A stretch of 32,000 nucleotides of DNA, taken from contig NZ_CP011041.1 in NCBI RefSeq assembly GCF_002310835.1, forward strand, positions 2,190,001-2,222,000. Direction: 5' to 3'. The stretch is from Pseudoalteromonas tetraodonis (GTDB lineage: Bacteria; Pseudomonadota; Gammaproteobacteria; Enterobacterales; Alteromonadaceae). How positions within the stretch are numbered: position 1 is the first letter of the stretch; each line of letters starts with the position of its first letter. Made by a program: the position numbers and the translations under genes. This document shows, piece by piece, positions 2,987-32,000 of this stretch. The notes under the pieces are model-generated. The model saw only the letters and a list, made by a program, of their open reading frames with translations. It did no database searches and was not told where the DNA came from.

Positions 2987-3012
2987 TGATAGCTGTCGGT
3001 TGTCAGCTATCA
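2987..3012 (+). terminator. Hairpin downstream of lnt (possible terminator, no clear U-tract)
   Basis: TGATAGCTG (2987-2995) and CAGCTATCA (3004-3012) form a perfect 9-bp stem with an 8-nt loop, 8 nt after the lnt stop. It sits between convergent genes. Confidence 0.3.
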
Positions 3013-3046
3013 GTATATAAATACAACCCCAATAATTTAGTAAGAT

Positions 3047-3538
3047 TTAAACATCAGGGTAATTTTTTATCCATTGATCAGTACACCCTCTTTCAAGATA
3101 AATTGAGATTGTTTTCTTTAAAAGACGACTTGTCATGTCCATTAATGCAGTTGTTCCCCCAGTAATTGCATTTTTCTCATAAATATAGCGACTTTCAATA
3201 AAGGTATGTCGATATCTTTCAATCAGTATCAATGAAAGGTCGCTTGAAAATTTATGCTTAATTGAAGTTGGTAACGCATTAAATAGATACACCAAATCAT
3301 GTGCATTTTCTTTTTTATTAAGAACCTTAGCGTTAAATTGATATTTTTCGTTTATTAATCCATCACTGCTTACTACTTTGCAGTTAAAGCTTTTAAGTAA
3401 TATCTCCAAAGCTAATGCTGCATTAGCTATCGAAATACTAATTGAATGACTCCACATAAGCTCTGATGCCTTCAAATATAGATATGATGTTTCAATCATA
3501 TGAGGAGCTAAAACCCAATCATAGCTGTCATCGTTCAT
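3047..3538 (-). CDS. Hypothetical protein, classical HEPN-domain-like (solitary)
   Basis: 163-aa ORF in an AT-rich stretch. Helix pattern ..AALALEILLKSF.. then ..NAHDLVYLFNALP.. then ..IERYRHTFIESRYIYE.. resembles the PF05168-type HEPN signature (A.E..LK, tHdL..L, ..sRY). No nucleotidyltransferase partner gene lies adjacent. Confidence 0.5.
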   Translation of the reverse strand: MNDDSYDWVLAPHMIETSYLYLKASELMWSHSISISIANAALALEILLKSFNCKVVSSDGLINEKYQFNAKVLNKKENAHDLVYLFNALPTSIKHKFSSDLSLILIERYRHTFIESRYIYEKNAITGGTTALMDMTSRLLKKTISIYLERGCTDQWIKNYPDV

Positions 3539-3590
3539 AGCCTTTCCTTAAAAATAATCTAAATATTTTTATTCTTATAAAACTAGGTTT

Positions 3591-4448
3591 CTAGTTACTT
3601 AATAATTCTTTAATCCCATAATACCAACTAAGTGCGGCGACTGTGCCATGGGTTTCATCTTCAAAATAACGTTGATTTATAACTAAATTATCGCTCGGGT
3701 GCGCTTTTAACTTTTTAGCAAACGCTAAACCCCATTGGTAATTTGTTTTACCAATTTCGCCAAACGCTTCGACATTATTTGCAAAGGTAAAATACACATT
3801 GCCGTTAAGCTGCTTATTTATAAATTGGTTATCATTAAAATAACGATTGAGGTAGTTATTATCCCACAGATAGGTTGCATCAATAATTAAGTAATCTGTA
3901 AATAGCGCATGGTTGGTAAGCAATACATAGCTGGCAAATAAGCCACCGAAAGACTCGCCAATTAATACGCGTTTAGTTGATGTCCGGTAATTTTTATTAA
4001 TGAGTGGAATAAGTTCTTTTTCAAAAAAGGCGCTGTAGTTTAAGGCGTTGCCGATATTTTCAAATCTTTCTAGGAGTTTACCGTTAAATGTCCGATCAAC
4101 ATTGGTTGGGGTAAAGTCACGCTCTCTTATCGCATTTTTACTATTAGGAATGGCTACTATAATTGCTTGCTGTATTTGCTGCTCTAGCCGGTCCGTACTA
4201 AGTGTCTCTACTAGCCCAGCTACGGCTTTTAGATGTGTTTGGTCACCATCGAGCAAGTAAATAACTGGATATACTTTATTAGGGTTTTCATTATAGCTTG
4301 GCGGTAAATAAACGCTAAAGCTGCGTTGCTCACCTAAAATAACAGACGTAAGCTGATGCGTTTTTGCGAACACAATATTTTCTGACGCATACGAAACCGT
4401 AATAAAATACAGATCAATAAATACAATTAATAAAGCTTTCATAACCAT
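3591..4448 (-). CDS. Secreted alpha/beta hydrolase, putative esterase family (PF00756/COG2819, IroE-like)
   Basis: 285 aa with an N-terminal signal-like hydrophobic segment. It has VYPVIYLLDGD near the N-terminus, the nucleophile elbow GESFGG (GxSxG) and a C-terminal ..ETHGT.. histidine. Confidence 0.72.
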   Translation of the reverse strand: MVMKALLIVFIDLYFITVSYASENIVFAKTHQLTSVILGEQRSFSVYLPPSYNENPNKVYPVIYLLDGDQTHLKAVAGLVETLSTDRLEQQIQQAIIVAIPNSKNAIRERDFTPTNVDRTFNGKLLERFENIGNALNYSAFFEKELIPLINKNYRTSTKRVLIGESFGGLFASYVLLTNHALFTDYLIIDATYLWDNNYLNRYFNDNQFINKQLNGNVYFTFANNVEAFGEIGKTNYQWGLAFAKKLKAHPSDNLVINQRYFEDETHGTVAALSWYYGIKELLSN

Positions 4449-4467
4449 CCTTGTAATAAGAGCAAAG

Positions 4468-5478
4468 TTAACTTTTAACAGTCTCTTCTACCGTTTGCAC
4501 ATTTACAACTTGGTTAATACTCCCTTTAATAACCACCGTGGCTGATATTTTATCTTGAATAGCTTGTCTGTTTGGGTCCCAGTACACTTGTAAAAAGCCT
4601 AACAAGCCGGTGGCAAAACCTGCGCCGTAACCACCGTAGCGGCCAAAACAATCAAGTAAACCCAGCGGTTCACCACTTAATGCAACCACTCGGGTGTTAC
4701 AGAGCTTTTTACCAGGGGTTTGACCGCGCCATAATAAAGAAAACAGTGTGAAGTACACAGTCGCCCAGCCAAAACCCAAACCTAAATCTTGAATAATACC
4801 TTTACCCCACTGCAAAATACTGTGCGTGGTTGTTTGTGCGGGCTTATCTTCTATTAACTGCGCAAGCTTTAATTCATTATTTTCACCAAACACTAATAAT
4901 TGTAAAAATGCTTTTGCAAGTTGTGGGTTTTGTAAGTCGTCCATTTCGGCTAATTTGGGTACTTGCCCTATCAAATTATCAAGCGCATTTTGTTGGCAAA
5001 GTTGCTCACAGCTTTCGTCGGCTGTTTGCACTAAGTAGGCATTTACCTGCTTTTTTTCTGTGGAGGTAAGCTGAATGTCATCCTGTATTTTTAAGCCTTT
5101 AACAGTTAAGCCTTGAACAGGGTCATCGCCTTCTAAGTAATCTATGCCAATTGAAAGCACAGCAAGAGCGCTTACAAATAAAATACTTGCTGCTACTATT
5201 TTTAATATTCTTCGCCACACACTCGACATTTTAGGAAGGTATTGCTGCGCCGTTCCTTTGTAAAAAGCCATCGCAGCAACGAATGCAATAATAGTTGCAC
5301 TGAGCTTTGCAGCTATGAATATTAATGCAACATCAATAATCATAGCTAATGCGCGCCGAGTCGGCGAAGCCAAAGGCAAGCCAAGTAAAGCATTATCAAC
5401 CTCAAAGGCATATGGCGTGATCACTTCTCGAGTTTCGGCTTTAGATAACGCTAATTGTTCTAATTCTTGTGCTTTCAT
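4468..5478 (-). CDS. RDD family membrane protein
   Basis: 336 aa. It has an N-terminal RRALAMIIDVALIF.. motif, several TM helices and a C-terminal WRGQTPGKKLCNTRVV motif typical of RDD domains. A long soluble insert separates the membrane halves. Confidence 0.7.
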   Translation of the reverse strand: MKAQELEQLALSKAETREVITPYAFEVDNALLGLPLASPTRRALAMIIDVALIFIAAKLSATIIAFVAAMAFYKGTAQQYLPKMSSVWRRILKIVAASILFVSALAVLSIGIDYLEGDDPVQGLTVKGLKIQDDIQLTSTEKKQVNAYLVQTADESCEQLCQQNALDNLIGQVPKLAEMDDLQNPQLAKAFLQLLVFGENNELKLAQLIEDKPAQTTTHSILQWGKGIIQDLGLGFGWATVYFTLFSLLWRGQTPGKKLCNTRVVALSGEPLGLLDCFGRYGGYGAGFATGLLGFLQVYWDPNRQAIQDKISATVVIKGSINQVVNVQTVEETVKS

Positions 5479-5664
5479 TATTATACTTGTTATTAAAATA
5501 GGTAACGCGATTAAATTACGCGCTTTTTAATTTTTGCTCAAGCGAATAAAATGGATAACGAGAGTTCACATTGAAAATAGCCGCTAGTAATAGATTAATT
5601 CTTAAAAGAGTGAACAATTAATCTATCGTATCGTATTAAATATAAAAGCTACGAGGAAGAGCTT

Positions 5665-29273: not shown

Positions 29274-29310
29274 TTAGCACAAAAAACTAAGGCGTAACCT
29301 CAGTTACGCC
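29274..29310 (-). terminator. Rho-independent terminator of the Csr-type sRNA
   Basis: The minus strand reads GGCGTAAC-TGAG-GTTACGCC followed by TTAGTTTTTTGTG. On the plus strand the hairpin has no downstream T-run, so it is oriented for minus-strand transcription. Confidence 0.72.
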
Positions 29311-29665
29311 CCAATTGCAAACATCCTGTAAGGTATCCTTTACCTATTCCCTGTTTATCATCCTCTGAACGAGCAAACTACCGTGTTTACTCTCTATTGC
29401 ATCCTGCAATATCCACTTGCCGCCTTGGCTATCCTGCGTAAACTAACGCTCCTGCAATTTCCTATCGCATCATCCTTGGTGTCCTTTAAATAGCTCCCAG
29501 CTATTTTAGTACTCCGTGTACTTCCTGTTTCATCCCTGCATCCGTGTTAACTTGTCCTTTGTGCTTCCTGCTAGTAACTACTTAGTTGCCTGATTCCTTA
29601 TCCGTGGCAGTAGCTCAATCATTGGGCTATGTCGTCTTGACAAAATAAAGTTTAAAGCAAACGGC
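29278..29665 (-). ncRNA. csrB: CsrB/RsmB-family CsrA-sequestering small RNA
   Basis: There are 20 TCC on the + strand (GGA on the - strand) between 29334 and 29603, and no GGA on the + strand in the same span. Minus-strand motifs include CAGGATG, AAGGATA, GAGGATG, CAGGGA, ACGGAT and CAGGAAG. One, TTACAGGATGTT, nearly matches the CsrA SELEX consensus RUACARGGAUGU. There is no ORF, and a minus-strand terminator sits at the 3' end. The 5' end is approximate, with a candidate -10 TATCAT at 29676-29671. Confidence 0.8.
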
Positions 29666-29785
29666 TTCGTATGATAGTGAGGAAAACAAAAAAAATTACG
29701 GTCATAAAATTGAAAAATAAAAATAACTATAAATAACAATAGCTTGATGTTTTTAAGAAGATAAAATACGGAGTTAAACTGACAA

Positions 29786-29825
29786 GGCGCACGTTAATGT
29801 AAGATATATCTCACGTAAGTGCGCC
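29786..29825. promoter_or_regulatory. GacA/UvrY-type upstream activating palindrome for the sRNA promoter
   Basis: TGTAAG-ATATAT-CTCACG (29798-29815) compares with the consensus TGTAAG-N6-CTTACA. It is embedded in the larger inverted repeat GGCGCAC..GTGCGCC (29786-29792 / 29819-29825). It lies about 140-165 bp upstream of the inferred sRNA start, separated by A-tract-rich DNA with an IHF-like ATCAAgctaTTG (minus strand, about 29741-29752). Confidence 0.5.
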
Positions 29826-29914
29826 CTATTTGGAACATAGGCTTACATAATCACTGGTATCTGTCATTCGAAGTGAGATTCTCAGTCACTTGATAATTAG
29901 ACTCTATATAGCAC

Positions 29915-30538
29915 TTATTTAAAATTTAGCTTTGGTAGGATATTTCGGTATGTATCTCGAATACGGGTAATATCATTTAAAACATGCATGTTACCCGTCA
30001 TTGTTGCCAAATGGACAGCTGATAACATTACTAATCCATTTGAATTAACTAGTATTTGTTCCAACAACTGTAACGGGTATCCTTCACCGTGTCGTTTCAT
30101 CGCATGAATTCCACCGTGTACGTAAGAGCTTGAAGCTTTCCAAGTAACATCTCTAAACTCAGTTAGCATTCGAGTAGCTTCAGCTGGTGCTTTGCCATCA
30201 ATCTGCTTAATCATTTCGCAATGCGAAGGTAGGCCATTATCAGCATTAGCCGTATTTATAGATAAGTCTTGCATGATCCGATCAACTTTTTTCTCAGAAG
30301 CTCCCCAGAGTAGCCATACAGATCTTGTTAAAGCATCAAATTGAAGCCTTAACAGCGATATTGCTGAAGTGCAGTTACCAATCTCCATTAAGTTTTGTAG
30401 AGAGTGAGCATGTTCAATTGCAATATCACACATTACCCAACTGCCTAAACATCGTTTACTACTCTTATTCGGGCCAAGAGAAATAATCATGTTTAATTCA
30501 TTGAGTAATAAGTTCGAACGTTCTAGAAGTGACTCCAT
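29915..30538 (-). CDS. Hypothetical all-helical protein, third gene of the ATPase-HNH operon
   Basis: 207-aa ORF, 53 nt downstream of the HNH gene on the same strand, with AAGGCGGG upstream of its ATG. It has no TM helix or signal peptide and no family I can name with confidence. Motifs LLRLQFDALTRSVWLLWG and SSYVHGGIHAMKRHG are noted. Confidence 0.6.
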   Translation of the reverse strand: MESLLERSNLLLNELNMIISLGPNKSSKRCLGSWVMCDIAIEHAHSLQNLMEIGNCTSAISLLRLQFDALTRSVWLLWGASEKKVDRIMQDLSINTANADNGLPSHCEMIKQIDGKAPAEATRMLTEFRDVTWKASSSYVHGGIHAMKRHGEGYPLQLLEQILVNSNGLVMLSAVHLATMTGNMHVLNDITRIRDTYRNILPKLNFK

Positions 30539-30591
30539 TCATTTATCCCGCCTTAAGGCTACTCTATATTGCTCTATTGATTGGTAACTGT

Positions 30592-31455
30592 TTAAACCCC
30601 TCTCATCTGAGAGGTATGTAGCCACAGTTTAAACATCTCTTTGCAAGCTACAGAGTAAGGTTGAGAATCATCAAGGTAATCTTCTTTAATAATTAATAAC
30701 TCTTCCTCGATTTCATTGGTAAAGTCTATTCCCTCTTCTTCCTGTCGTTTAAAATATCTTTCTATTCGAAAAAAACAGCGTTGTAGCCCTTTGTAAGTTT
30801 TCGCTCTACTTTCGACTAATTCCGGTCTATTTAATCCAAAATATTTGATAGAAGCTTTAGCTTTTAGCCGACTAACGCCGGATTGATTCACAGGCTTTGC
30901 GATGGGACGCTCACACACTGGATAAAATGTTAGGTAGTCTGAAGGATTCTCTTCACACGGATTAATAAGTAGCGGGATTTCATTTACTTCACTACCCTGA
31001 ACTCTTAGCGTGTTTGATGTGGGATATATAGGAAAGTGGTCAGATTTACCTAGATTGATTTGATTATTACGTATTAAGTGACCCCTCTTACGGTTACAAT
31101 CTATACAAGACGGTAATAAGTTGCTCCAGTCGGCAGCTAACCACCAGTACCCAGGACTAATCGTTCCTTGTTCTCCTTCTTTTTGAATTCTGGCTTTAGG
31201 TCTGAAGTGCTCAATGTCAGTAGGATGTACATCAAGATAATAACTTTCACAGTAAGCACATTTTTTTTTGAATAAACTATGCAATGCTCTGCTGATGTCA
31301 GCATTCTTATATACTTTAAAGCTGTATGCCTTCTCACCTGGAACATAGTTGTTATAGAATGCTGTTGCTTTTTGTAGCTCTTCACTTGCTGCTGAGTTTT
31401 GGCCGTCACAAGAGCCTGGAACAGCAATTGAGGTACGGTCTCTATATATCATCAA
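30592..31455 (-). CDS. HNH endonuclease, TIGR02646/PtuB-like (Septu-type)
   Basis: 287 aa. The layout is ..VYKNADISRALHSLFKKKCAYCES..(H)PTDIEHFRPK..W.NLLPSCIDCNRKRG.. then LLINPCEENPSDYLTF. This gives a CxxC...H...N...CxxC HNH zinc-finger arrangement like PtuB/retron-associated HNH proteins. Its start overlaps the ATPase stop by 14 nt. Confidence 0.8.
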   Translation of the reverse strand: MMIYRDRTSIAVPGSCDGQNSAASEELQKATAFYNNYVPGEKAYSFKVYKNADISRALHSLFKKKCAYCESYYLDVHPTDIEHFRPKARIQKEGEQGTISPGYWWLAADWSNLLPSCIDCNRKRGHLIRNNQINLGKSDHFPIYPTSNTLRVQGSEVNEIPLLINPCEENPSDYLTFYPVCERPIAKPVNQSGVSRLKAKASIKYFGLNRPELVESRAKTYKGLQRCFFRIERYFKRQEEEGIDFTNEIEEELLIIKEDYLDDSQPYSVACKEMFKLWLHTSQMRGV

Positions 31456-32000
31456 TCATCCCAAGACTTTTAGCTTTTTCAAATAAAGTTTCAATTGACT
31501 CTTTTGACCACTCCGAGTAATAAAGATCCTTCCTGTGCTCTGCTATTTCTAGATCTATCAGGCGCGTCAACATCCGTTCTCGCTTTGTTAAACCAGTATT
31601 GCTTTTCAACTCCAGTTCTTTGGGGGGGCTGATGTTCTCAATTATTTCTATTGAATTAGAATCACTAGATTCACTAGCAACTCTTTCAAGCTCTTTGTAA
31701 TAGTCTTGAAGGATATCCTCTGTTTCGATGTCCTGAGTTGTTTGCAGCCCAAACATGTCAGATGTGAGTAACTGATCGACAGAAGCACCTTTTAATGAAG
31801 GATAATCTGTTATTGCAACCAGCTCATCATCTTCATCGTGCTTTAGTATCAATAATTCACCTTCATTTAAGCCTCTCAAAATTAAGGGATCATGAGTTGA
31901 AACATAAAAATGAACTAGAGGAAACGCATCTCTAAAAGCTTGCAGTATCTTAAGCCTCCAAGAGGGATGTAAATGAGCATCAAGTTCATCGATTAAAACA
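31442..32000 (-). CDS. ABC/AAA_21-type ATPase, PtuA-like (C-terminal part; N-terminus lies beyond the window)
   Basis: The reading frame is open to the window edge. My translation of 32000-31880 gives ..VLIDELDAHLHPSWRLKILQAFRDAFPLVHFYVSTHDPLILRGL.., which shows Walker B/D-loop (LIDELDAHLH) and H-loop (STHDP) motifs. The TTG at 31879 in the ORF track is not the real start. Confidence 0.78.
   Translation of the reverse strand, partial: VLIDELDAHLHPSWRLKILQAFRDAFPLVHFYVSTHDPLILRGLNEGELLILKHDEDDELVAITDYPSLKGASVDQLLTSDMFGLQTTQDIETEDILQDYYKELERVASESSDSNSIEIIENISPPKELELKSNTGLTKRERMLTRLIDLEIAEHRKDLYYSEWSKESIETLFEKAKSLGMIDDI

What the first reader, a model, noticed from the sequence alone, without database searches (positions are those of the whole stretch)
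29915..32000. Septu-like ATPase plus HNH operon with an extra, unassigned third gene (system truncated by the window edge)
The minus strand encodes three genes in a row:
- **ATPase.** An ABC-type ATPase with Walker B/D-loop LIDELDAHLH, H-loop STHDP and LLTSDMFGL.
- **HNH nuclease.** It overlaps the ATPase stop by 14 nt (translational coupling) and has the TIGR02646-type layout (KCAYCE...DIEHFRPK...NLLPSCIDCNRKRG...LINPCEENP).
- **Third gene.** A 207-aa helical protein of unknown family, 53 nt further downstream.

ATPase plus TIGR02646-type HNH is the defining pair of the Septu defence system (PtuA/PtuB). A tightly linked third gene is not part of the canonical two-gene definition as I know it.

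The cassette sits directly beside a core regulatory sRNA gene and looks AT-richer than the core genes by eye (not computed), consistent with an acquired island. This could be a three-component Septu variant or a distinct system built on a PtuAB-like core.
Basis: partly seen in the sequence, partly recalled or inferred. Interest (0 to 1): 0.8.

Follow-up and report, generated by a model that had tools for sequence, protein, structure and literature searches.

The report
Septu pair plus separate DUF6988 gene
The first two genes are an ordinary Septu (PtuA/PtuB) anti-phage pair at the end of a horizontally moving restriction-modification defence island, and the 'extra' third gene belongs to a catalogued but untested stand-alone defence-candidate family (DUF6988 / PADLOC PDC-S52) that follows many different defence systems, so it is most likely not a new Septu subunit.

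Summary
The three minus-strand genes are real and the Septu call is correct. The ATPase fragment matches PADLOC PtuA (4e-49) and the HNH gene matches PtuB (6e-70). The genes overlap by 11-14 nt. Near-identical contigs supply the missing upstream part: a complete 729-aa PtuA with Walker A and its own N-terminal HNH domain. It is preceded by hsdM-hsdS-hsdR and a NucS/DUF5655 gene, with no reverse transcriptase.

The "unassigned" third gene is assigned: Pfam DUF6988 (5e-64), which is PADLOC PDC-S52 (2e-75), an untested single-gene defence candidate.

Across 80 DUF6988 loci from different species, PtuAB lies directly upstream in one and 3.3 kb away in another. Elsewhere the gene follows other HNH proteins, PDC-S19, DRT1, PDC-M59 or PDC-S11. 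It also stands alone between opposite-strand genes, and is the sole ORF between integron-type repeats. Catenovulum has the same hsd and DUF6988 flanks (92-97% nt), but a dCTP deaminase plus an unrelated HNH replace PtuAB. Close PtuAB relatives exist without DUF6988, and one carries it as a pseudogene.

Verdict: a composite, horizontally moved defence island of known modules, not a three-component Septu. Operon-level coupling here cannot be excluded. Interest is low to moderate.

The parts
31442..32000 (-). 3' part (186 codons) of ptuA, cut by the window edge. It encodes the C-terminal part of an ABC-type ATPase: Walker B/D-loop VLIDELDAHLH and H-loop STHDP. The full gene encodes 729 aa, with an N-terminal PtuB-like HNH domain and Walker A GTNGLGKTT.
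   Evidence: Translation. PADLOC PtuA PDLC00292 4.3e-49. Full-length protein from contig L001 (99.5% identical to the window) matches PDLC00292 over 6-702 of 726 positions at 2.1e-136.
30592..31452 (-). ptuB, an HNH endonuclease of the TIGR02646/PtuB type (286 aa from the ATG; an alternative TTG start lies at 31455). It overlaps the ptuA stop by 11-14 nt.
   Evidence: PADLOC PtuB PDLC00319 6.3e-70. NCBIfam TIGR02646 scores 48.5 bits, just under the 52.15 cut-off, and PtuB NF041761 gives 1.2e-15. The gene call is the same in all metagenome contigs.
29915..30538 (-). DUF6988 / PADLOC PDC-S52 gene (207 aa). The protein is all-helical and single-domain. It is the terminal gene of the island, 53 nt after ptuB, with no predicted promoter or terminator in between.
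   Evidence: Pfam PF22491 4.9e-64. PDLC05034 1.6e-75. AlphaFold2 model with pLDDT 86.5 and ten helices. Promoter and terminator scan.
29856..29914 (-). About 60 nt of conserved 3' flank that travels with the DUF6988 gene. This is the right-hand end of the transferable island; similarity to the Catenovulum island stops here.
   Evidence: blastn of L001 against L011 ends at L001 10684, which is window position about 29855. Alignment A4.
29798..29815 (-). CGTGAGATATATCTTACA, which resembles the GacA/UvrY box (TGTAAG-N6-CTTACA, consensus recalled from memory) upstream of the Csr-type sRNA. It is a neighbour of the island, not part of the defence cassette.
   Evidence: Read from the sequence. The block is conserved in four loci, including Catenovulum. 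The function is inferred.
29275..29600 (-). Csr/Rsm-type GGA-rich sRNA gene with an intrinsic terminator at 29285-29316. It is a core-genome neighbour of the island.
   Evidence: 20 GGA motifs against 2.1 expected, 15 of them unpaired in the minimum-free-energy fold. Rfam CsrC 21.3 bits, E = 3e-4, below the gathering score. Terminator-like hairpin.

Best explanation
The window ends inside the right-hand part of a defence island of about 10.7 kb that moves horizontally. The host is Pseudoalteromonas tetraodonis or a very close relative.

**Gene order of the island.** NucS/DUF5655 gene (PADLOC PDC-S18), hsdR, hsdS, hsdM (type I R-M), ptuA, ptuB (Septu type I), then DUF6988 (PDC-S52).

**Septu module.** PtuA/PtuB is a complete two-gene Septu module. 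It belongs to the subfamily in which PtuA carries its own N-terminal HNH domain. By analogy with studied Septu and retron-Eco7 PtuAB, the ABC ATPase assembles with the HNH nuclease. On infection the complex cuts nucleic acid (tRNA-Tyr or DNA) and stops phage growth. This step is inferred from the literature, not shown here.

**DUF6988.** It is a separate module without a fixed partner and does not define a Septu subunit. It is a single-domain helical protein. Strongly conserved polar residues (H43, R64, Q66, E68, R72, S138, H141, N167) suggest an enzyme or a ligand-binding site. My guess, at roughly 30% confidence, is a hydrolase-type abortive-infection effector that acts on its own.

**Why it sits here.** The hsd genes and DUF6988 form a conserved frame, and the cassette between them is exchanged by recombination. 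In this strain DUF6988 is probably co-transcribed with ptuAB. That is read as island packing, not as functional dependence.
For: **Identity of the parts.**

**Upstream context.** Context and the complete PtuA come from 99.5-100% identical contigs.

**DUF6988 has no fixed partner.**
- Among 80 DUF6988 loci from different species, PtuAB is directly upstream only in L019 and 3.3 kb upstream in L052.
- A PADLOC scan of 136 upstream neighbours found PtuA/PtuB models matched by only two proteins. These are presumably the L019 pair seen.
- Other immediate upstream genes are: a 275-279-aa C-terminal-HNH protein, PDC-S19, DRT1a, PDC-M59A/B and PDC-S11. A Ppl-like ATPase is another, and PDC-M01 lies in the same hsd array.
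- In beta-proteobacteria the neighbours are ICE-type genes such as DUF932 and ParB_N.

**DUF6988 looks autonomous.**
- 24 loci have an opposite-strand upstream gene, and 14 are flanked by opposite-strand genes on both sides.
- In Aliivibrio fischeri chromosome II it is the only ORF between two 133-138-nt repeats of a cassette array.
- Nearly all of the 150 best family representatives (of 1870 matched) are single-domain proteins of about 200-230 aa.

**The middle cassette is swapped.** L001 against Catenovulum L011 gives 97% and 92% nt identity over the hsd genes and 94% over DUF6988. There is no similarity across PtuAB, which is replaced by a dCTP deaminase plus an HNH gene.

**Each module occurs without the other.**
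- PtuAB relatives L100 (PtuB 78% identical) and L102-104 (65%) have no DUF6988 downstream.
- L019 keeps intact PtuAB but carries DUF6988 with one stop codon and two frameshifts.

**Literature.**
- Two-gene Septu is sufficient for defence, and it needs the Walker A/B and HNH motifs (PMC13096335).
- PDC systems are untested candidates found by embedding in BREX, DISARM and type I R-M loci (bioRxiv 10.1101/2024.01.29.577857).
Against: - In this locus the gap is only 53 nt, with no predicted terminator or promoter between ptuB and DUF6988. An operon, and hence some functional coupling, cannot be excluded.
- Within the nearest PtuAB clade, four of six sampled lineages carry DUF6988 downstream (window, L095, L019, L105). 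In L105 there is no intact hsd operon. However, L105 still has about 200 nt of the hsdM 3' end upstream of ptuA, so it derives from the same frame.
- In the closest DUF6988 clade (72% identity or more), seven of eight lineages have an HNH nuclease gene directly upstream. That could point to a nuclease-linked role.
- No experiment shows that DUF6988 defends on its own.
- The DefensePredictor link (DS-15 gene 3, HHpred 0.94) was not reproduced by hhalign (probability 0.14).
- My gene calls for the 80 loci are crude: longest-ORF selection plus a GC3 filter.
Confidence: 0.72

Rival explanations
1. Three-component Septu variant. DUF6988 is a dedicated third subunit or regulator of this HNH-fused PtuAB subfamily, made from the same transcript.
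For: - The spacing is tight: 53 nt here and 41 nt in L105. No terminator or promoter is predicted between the genes.
- The trio PtuA-PtuB-DUF6988 recurs in the window, L095, L105 and, decayed, in L019.
Against: - Only 1-2 of 80 DUF6988 loci have PtuAB nearby.
- The four trio lineages all trace to one hsd-framed arrangement. L105 keeps a remnant of the hsdM 3' end.
- L100 and L102-104 have PtuAB of the same subfamily without DUF6988.
- L019 has intact PtuAB with a DUF6988 pseudogene.
- Catenovulum keeps DUF6988 at 92% aa identity with PtuAB replaced.
- Published Septu works as two genes (PMC13096335).
Confidence: 0.1
2. DUF6988 is a generic downstream add-on: a regulator, a sensor or a second-line effector. 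It couples to whatever effector precedes it, especially nucleases, or to the type I R-M frame. It would be neither independent nor specific to Septu.
For: - When the upstream gene is on the same strand the gaps are often very short or overlapping: 5-7 nt in L011, L012 and L014, and -4 nt in L044, L047 and L071.
- Seven of eight lineages in the closest clade follow an HNH gene.
- hsdM lies upstream on the same strand in 9 of 80 loci, from different hsd families and gene orders.
- PDC candidates were defined by embedding in BREX, DISARM and type I R-M loci.
Against: - There are many monocistronic occurrences. These include one between integron-type repeats, large plasmids and ICE-like regions with no defence gene next to it.
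- Partners include non-nucleases, such as a Fic protein and DRT1a.
Confidence: 0.1
3. DUF6988 is not an immune protein at all. It could be a gene for mobile-element maintenance or counter-defence, or a factor tied to the Csr/Rsm post-transcriptional network, and it merely rides in variable regions.
For: - In beta-proteobacteria the neighbours are typical of ICEs (my knowledge of these families): DUF932, ParB_N, DUF2958 and SSB.
- A CsrA-DUF6988 fusion protein exists (P0314), and a csrA homologue lies 139 nt upstream in L045.
- In the window and in Catenovulum the gene abuts a Csr-type sRNA gene.
- No direct experimental proof of defence was found.
Against: - In the marine clade it is consistently placed after recognised defence genes.
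- It is absent from 50,697 phage records and from PHROGs.
- The Csr links are few. The sRNA adjacency is one shared insertion event.
Confidence: 0.08

Closest known systems
Septu type I (PtuA ABC ATPase + PtuB HNH nuclease; Doron et al. 2018; PADLOC septu_type_I)
   Same: Both proteins match PADLOC PtuA/PtuB models end to end. The genes overlap. Walker A, Walker B, the H-loop and the HNH CxxC/H/N motifs are present. There is no reverse transcriptase.
   Different: PtuA is 729 aa and carries an extra N-terminal PtuB-like HNH domain. This subfamily is already represented by PADLOC models PDLC00292, PDLC00288 and PDLC00291. The pair is nested at the end of a type I R-M operon.
PADLOC PDC-S52 / Pfam DUF6988 (PF22491): a single-gene phage defence candidate predicted by 'guilt-by-embedding' (Payne et al., bioRxiv 10.1101/2024.01.29.577857)
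   Same: The match is full length (1.6e-75 and 4.9e-64). The context is the one the PDC candidates were drawn from: embedded in or appended to BREX, DISARM or type I R-M loci.
   Different: Nothing structural differs. The family itself has no demonstrated function and no detectable fold relative in PDB or BFVD.
Retron type I-A (Retron-Eco7/Ec78), called Septu type II in PADLOC, where the third gene is a reverse transcriptase (PtuC)
   Same: It uses a PtuA/PtuB effector pair. It is the known three-gene form of Septu (PMC8565338).
   Different: Here there is no reverse transcriptase and no room for an ncRNA: hsdM ends 34 nt before ptuA. NCBIfam retron PtuA and PtuB equivalog scores are far below their cut-offs (68 against 500, and 58 against 150). 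The third gene lies downstream and is unrelated to a reverse transcriptase.
Defence genes embedded in type I R-M loci (PrrC, which is almost exclusively embedded in type I R-M; other embedded systems and PDCs)
   Same: It shows the same genomic logic: extra defence cassettes sit inside or at the end of an hsd operon. The middle cassette is exchanged between conserved flanks.
   Different: No evidence here that PtuAB or DUF6988 is functionally controlled by the R-M enzyme, as I recall (from memory, not checked) PrrC is by EcoprrI.
DefensePredictor DS-15 (ParA-like ATPase + 132-aa protein + 221-aa protein annotated DUF6988 by HHpred; validated in E. coli)
   Same: It is the only experimental link between a DUF6988-annotated protein and phage defence (PMC13092281).
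   Different: The partners differ and there is no PtuAB. The DUF6988 assignment covers residues 68-144 only. My hhalign of the DUF6988 alignment against that protein gave probability 0.14.

Membership tests
Septu type I (PtuA/PtuB) | PtuA: an ABC/AAA_15-AAA_21-type ATPase with intact Walker A, Walker B and H-loop | tested here: met
   PDLC00292 at 2.1e-136 over 6-702 of 726 positions. Walker A GTNGLGKTT lies in the upstream part from L001. Walker B VLIDELD and the H-loop STHD lie in the window.
Septu type I (PtuA/PtuB) | PtuB: an HNH nuclease of the TIGR02646 type, encoded next to PtuA | tested here: met
   PDLC00319 at 6.3e-70. TIGR02646 scores 48.5 bits, 3.6 bits under its cut-off. CxxC...EH...N...CxxC motifs are present. 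The overlap with ptuA is 11-14 nt.
Septu type I (PtuA/PtuB) | Two genes suffice: there is no obligatory third component | tested here: met
   Relatives L100 and L102-104 have the pair without DUF6988. L019 has the pair with a DUF6988 pseudogene. The literature shows a two-gene system that is active.
Septu type I (PtuA/PtuB) | Protects against phage | not testable with these tools
   This needs plaque assays.
   Only 1 of 80 DUF6988 loci has PtuAB directly upstream, plus 1 at 3.3 kb. The four trio lineages share one hsd-derived frame.
Retron type I-A / Septu type II | A reverse transcriptase and msr-msd ncRNA upstream of ptuA | tested here: not met
   The upstream genes are hsdM, hsdS, hsdR and a DUF5655 gene. 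The gap between hsdM and ptuA is 34 nt. Rfam finds no retron RNA in the window.
DUF6988 / PADLOC PDC-S52 | Sequence match to the family model above threshold, over the full length | tested here: met
   PF22491 scores 215.6 bits against a cut-off of 27, covering profile positions 1-167 of 167. PDLC05034 matches 3-207 of 211 positions at 1.6e-75.
DUF6988 / PADLOC PDC-S52 | A single-gene unit that can occur without a fixed partner | tested here: met
   The upstream neighbours are diverse. Some loci are flanked by opposite-strand genes. One locus lies between integron-type repeats. Nearly all of the 150 best family representatives are single-domain.
DUF6988 / PADLOC PDC-S52 | Anti-phage activity | not testable with these tools
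   PDC systems are described as untested. No paper mentions PDC-S52.
Csr/Rsm sRNA (neighbour of the island) | Many GGA motifs in loops, a terminator, and a match to an Rfam Csr model | tested here: inconclusive
   The motif statistics are strong: 20 GGA against 2.1 expected. A terminator is present. The Rfam CsrC score of 21 bits is below the gathering score of 61.

The most novel reading that the evidence does not exclude
DUF6988 may be neither a Septu subunit nor a free-standing effector. It could be a portable plug-in module placed at the 3' end of many different effector cassettes: the PtuB HNH, a 279-aa HNH protein, the REase-like PDC-S19, DRT1 and a Fic protein. There it would act as a common sensor, regulator or back-up. 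It might work through RNA, given the CsrA-DUF6988 fusion and the position next to a Csr sRNA. The hsd...DUF6988 frame would then be a dedicated cassette-exchange site for defence genes.
Probability: 0.12. Interest if true: 0.55.

Novelty: new member of a known kind. Interest (0 to 1): 0.25.

Why it matters
The proposed new three-gene Septu is not supported. The locus is a stack of modules that current tools (PADLOC) already name: PDC-S18, type I R-M, Septu type I and PDC-S52.

Three things remain useful:
- **A natural cassette swap.** Two genera share hsd and DUF6988 flanks at 92-97% nt identity, while the cassette between them differs. This is a clean example of cassette exchange inside an R-M-anchored island.
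- **A description of DUF6988.** The survey shows a widespread, single-domain family without a fixed partner: 1870 cluster representatives. It has a conserved His/Arg/Gln/Glu/Ser set and no detectable fold relative. That makes it a reasonable, cheap candidate for single-gene phage-challenge tests.
- **An uncatalogued sRNA.** The neighbouring sRNA is a Csr-type RNA that Rfam does not capture at its gathering score.

Tried and rejected
- **Rfam at gathering threshold on the window:** nothing. Only a weak CsrC hit appears at the E-value threshold.
- **tRNA scan for an integration site:** none.
- **Fold searches with the DUF6988 model (pLDDT 86.5):** no match with E < 0.09 in PDB or BFVD. The best 'meaningful' hit was a HEPN protein, 2hsb, at E = 0.93 and TM 0.43/0.66, too weak to use.
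- **Profile search against PDB sequences:** nothing below E = 0.98.
- **DinB-like His-triad idea (H43, H141-x3-H145):** dropped. The HGGIH stretch is a loop in the model, not a helix. H145 is under 90% conserved in the wider family.
- **Weak Pfam relation to DUF5677:** found in 15 of 20 members, best E 0.015. It leads nowhere functional. The one DUF5677 gene tested in the literature was not among those giving defence.
- **hhalign of DUF6988 against DefensePredictor DS-15 gene 3:** probability 0.14.
- **PHROGs and 50,697 phage records:** no DUF6988.
- **Two exact-pattern scans of metagenome contigs to extend the island leftwards:** no match. The left side was reached instead through homologues of the DUF5655 gene.
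- **Terminal inverted repeats or Tn7-type ends:** searched between the 60-nt block after DUF6988 and the Tn7-like element on the left, with nothing significant. The 9-nt direct repeat ATATAGAGT flanking DUF6988 is at chance level.
- **GC content as evidence of acquisition:** too weak alone, at the 7.7th percentile.
Full report
**What is in the window**

- An ORF runs in from the window edge and ends at 31442. Its translation contains VLIDELDAHLH, STHDP and LLTSDMFGL.
- A 286/287-aa ORF spans 30592-31452 (ATG start) or 30592-31455 (TTG start). It carries the HNH-type CxxC/EH/N/CxxC motifs and overlaps the previous stop by 11 or 14 nt.
- A 207-aa ORF spans 29915-30538, 53 nt further on.

**Identity of the first two genes**

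- The ATPase fragment matches PADLOC PtuA models, best PDLC00292 at 4.3e-49.
- The HNH protein matches PtuB models, best PDLC00319 at 6.3e-70.
- NCBIfam gives the retron-type PtuA and PtuB equivalogs and TIGR02646 only below their cut-offs. This fits a stand-alone Septu rather than a retron effector pair.

**Sequence beyond the window**

The exact 207-aa protein is recorded for Pseudoalteromonas tetraodonis GFC. It occurs on 23 public contigs. These are 99.5-100% identical to the window where they overlap.

They show a complete 729-aa PtuA.
- Its C-terminal two thirds are the ABC ATPase, with Walker A GTNGLGKTT.
- Its N-terminal 250 residues are a second, PtuB-like HNH domain (HKCAFCE...VEHFRP...CIECSKYKGN).
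- The whole protein aligns end to end with PDLC00292 at 2.1e-136. This fused subfamily is therefore already in PADLOC.

Upstream of ptuA lie hsdM (34 nt away), hsdS, hsdR and a 314-aa NucS/DUF5655 gene. That last gene matches PADLOC PDC-S18 at 1.3e-130. There is no reverse transcriptase, so this is not a retron I-A / 'Septu type II' locus.

**Identity of the third gene**

It is not unassigned.
- It is a full-length member of Pfam DUF6988 at 4.9e-64.
- It matches PADLOC PDC-S52 at 1.6e-75.

PDC systems are 145 untested candidates. They were predicted from genes embedded in BREX, DISARM and type I R-M loci. No paper mentions PDC-S52.

The only DUF6988 mention is in DefensePredictor. There, gene 3 of the validated three-gene system DS-15 (ParA-like ATPase, a 132-aa protein and a 221-aa protein) was annotated DUF6988 by HHpred over residues 68-144. 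My hhalign comparison did not reproduce that relation (probability 0.14).

**Is DUF6988 a Septu component? The view from DUF6988**

A scan of one genome per species returned 169 relatives, and the best 80 loci were kept.
- phmmer with this window's PtuA and PtuB found the pair directly upstream only in L019 (Pseudoalteromonas sp. MMG007). It found the pair 3.3 kb upstream in L052.
- A PADLOC scan of the two upstream genes of 75 loci (136 proteins) found PtuA/PtuB models matched by only two proteins. These are presumably the L019 pair.

Other immediate upstream genes:
- a 275-279-aa protein with a C-terminal HNH domain (L011, L012, L014; gaps of 5-7 nt);
- PDC-S19 (L015, L018, L020);
- DRT1a (L016);
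- PDC-M59A/B, which includes a Fic protein (L024);
- PDC-S11 (L040);
- a Ppl-like ATPase (L071).

PDC-M01A/B lies further upstream in the L017 hsd array.

In beta-proteobacteria the neighbours are ICE-type genes: DUF932 in 10 loci, ParB_N in 9, plus DUF2958 and SSB. On large plasmids the gene stands among unrelated genes.

Further signs of autonomy:
- 24 loci have the upstream gene on the opposite strand. 14 are flanked by opposite-strand genes on both sides (crude gene calls).
- In Aliivibrio fischeri ES114 chromosome II, DUF6988 is the only ORF between two members of 133-138-nt repeat families spaced like integron cassettes.
- The family has 1870 representatives at 50% clustering. Nearly all of the 150 best are single-domain proteins of about 200-230 aa.

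**The view from PtuAB**

I sampled homologues of this PtuB with their contexts. Identities are amino-acid identities to this window's proteins.

| Locus | PtuA id. | PtuB id. | DUF6988 downstream? |
|---|---|---|---|
| L095 | 77% | 86% | yes |
| L105 | 78% | 58% | yes (84% identical, 41-nt gap) |
| L019 | 87% | 52% | pseudogene: one stop codon and two frameshifts, PtuAB intact |
| L100 | 71% | 78% | no; hsdM upstream, opposite-strand gene downstream |
| L102-104 | 59% | 65% | no |

L105 lacks an intact hsd operon but still carries about 200 nt of the hsdM 3' end before ptuA. All four trio lineages therefore trace to one ancestral arrangement. Each module occurs without the other.

**The frame**

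L001 (this locus) compares with Catenovulum maritimum L011 as follows:
- 97% nt identity over hsdR and the first part of hsdS;
- 92% over the rest of hsdS and hsdM;
- no similarity over the 3.2 kb that hold PtuAB;
- 94% over DUF6988 plus about 60 nt of 3' flank.

In Catenovulum the middle holds a dCTP-deaminase defence gene and the 275-aa HNH gene. Alignments place the right junction at the 5' end of DUF6988 and the island end about 60 nt after its stop.

The island is 98.9% identical between contigs whose core flanks are about 76% identical (L005). The left boundary is just upstream of the DUF5655 gene when L095 is compared.

On the left, P. espejiana-type contigs carry a Tn7-like tnsA-tnsB-tnsC-tniQ set about 3 kb away, oriented away from the island. 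I found no transposon ends that include the island.

hsdM lies upstream on the same strand in 9 of 80 DUF6988 loci, with different hsd families and gene orders. This agrees with how the PDC candidates were discovered.

**What DUF6988 might do**

- The AlphaFold2 model is confident (pLDDT 86.5, pTM 0.85) and consists of ten helices.
- Nothing in PDB or BFVD matches it at E < 0.09.
- Nothing in PDB sequences matches the family profile below E = 0.98.
- In 75 diverse members, W75, A80 and G143 are invariant. S8, H43, R64, Q66, E68, R72, P104, M109, S138, H141 and N167 are at least 90% conserved.
- The polar part of that set suggests a catalytic or ligand-binding site.
- Phage records and PHROGs lack the family.

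My working guess is an autonomous abortive-infection-type enzyme. This is inference only.

**Septu mechanism (from the literature, not tested here)**

A two-gene E. coli Septu protects, needs the PtuA Walker A/B and PtuB HNH motifs, and cleaves tRNA-Tyr (PMC13096335). Retron-Eco7 co-opts the same ATPase-nuclease pair (PMC12819146).

**Local transcription**

No sigma-70-like promoter or terminator-like hairpin is predicted between ptuB and DUF6988. Co-transcription is therefore likely. This is the main residual argument for coupling, and I cannot exclude it.

**Neighbourhood**

The adjacent Csr-type sRNA is real on motif grounds. A GacA-box-like element at 29798-29815 is conserved in related loci, including Catenovulum. 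There the island also sits next to a GGA-rich, terminator-ended region.

The GC content of the island part is 38.1% against 41.2% for the rest, which is only suggestive.

**Verdict**

The Septu identification and the 'acquired island' reading are supported. The 'unassigned third gene / three-component Septu' reading is not. The locus is a new instance of known modules stacked in an R-M-anchored island.

Noticed in passing
P0314 (loci L106 1393-2238 and L107); L045 9710-9883 and 10022-10612; window 29275-29915: A CsrA-DUF6988 fusion protein exists (CsrA domain at residues 1-49, DUF6988 at 108-278), found in two assemblies beside Dcm, Vsr and AIPR genes. In L045 an unfused csrA homologue lies 139 nt upstream of DUF6988. 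In the window and in Catenovulum L011, DUF6988 abuts a Csr-type sRNA gene. Whether this is a functional link or coincidence is unresolved.
   Followed up: partly
L001 6908-7650 (outside the window, upstream of 32000): PtuA carries its own N-terminal PtuB-like HNH domain with an apparently intact motif set. The system therefore encodes two HNH domains. The subfamily is already represented by PADLOC models PDLC00292, PDLC00288 and PDLC00291.
   Followed up: partly
L001 1-10684 against L011 460-10684: The hsdR-hsdS-hsdM and DUF6988 flanks are 92-97% identical in nucleotides between Pseudoalteromonas and Catenovulum. The cassette between them differs completely: PtuAB in one, a dCTP deaminase plus a 275-aa HNH protein in the other. 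This is a natural cassette swap inside an R-M-anchored frame.
   Followed up: yes
L011 9166-9993, L012 9156-9995 and L014 9156-9995: A conserved pair occurs in three genera: a 275-279-aa protein with a C-terminal HNH domain (66-70% identical to each other), followed 5-7 nt later by DUF6988. This may be a two-gene unit in its own right.
   Followed up: partly
L027 9836-10747 (Aliivibrio fischeri ES114 chromosome II): DUF6988 is the only ORF between two copies of 133-138-nt repeat families that recur every 0.5-2 kb. This looks like a single-gene cassette of the chromosomal integron array.
   Followed up: partly
L019 10001-10627 (Pseudoalteromonas sp. MMG007): DUF6988 is a pseudogene there, with one in-frame stop and two frameshifts. 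The upstream PtuA (726 aa) and PtuB (304 aa) remain intact.
   Followed up: yes
L097 2350-6790 and L099 2330-6621: A Tn7-like tnsA-tnsB-tnsC-tniQ set lies about 3 kb to the left of the island in P. espejiana-type contigs. Its tnsA end faces the island. No shared end repeats with the island's right end were found.
   Followed up: partly
window 29275-29815 (-): The GGA-rich sRNA (20 GGA in 371 nt), with a terminator and a GacA-box-like upstream element, scores only 21 bits against Rfam CsrC (gathering score 61). Pseudoalteromonas appears to have a Csr-type sRNA that current Rfam models do not capture at threshold.
   Followed up: partly
window 3000-5500: This is the stretch of lowest GC in the window (0.32-0.36). 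It carries three consecutive minus-strand ORFs (3047-3538, 3591-4448 and 4468-5478). They were not examined.
   Followed up: no
L001 1-910, L097 10001-10945: The first gene of the island, a 314-aa NucS/DUF91-DUF5655 protein that some sources annotate as 'predicted transport protein', matches PADLOC PDC-S18 at 1.3e-130. It has thousands of relatives.
   Followed up: partly
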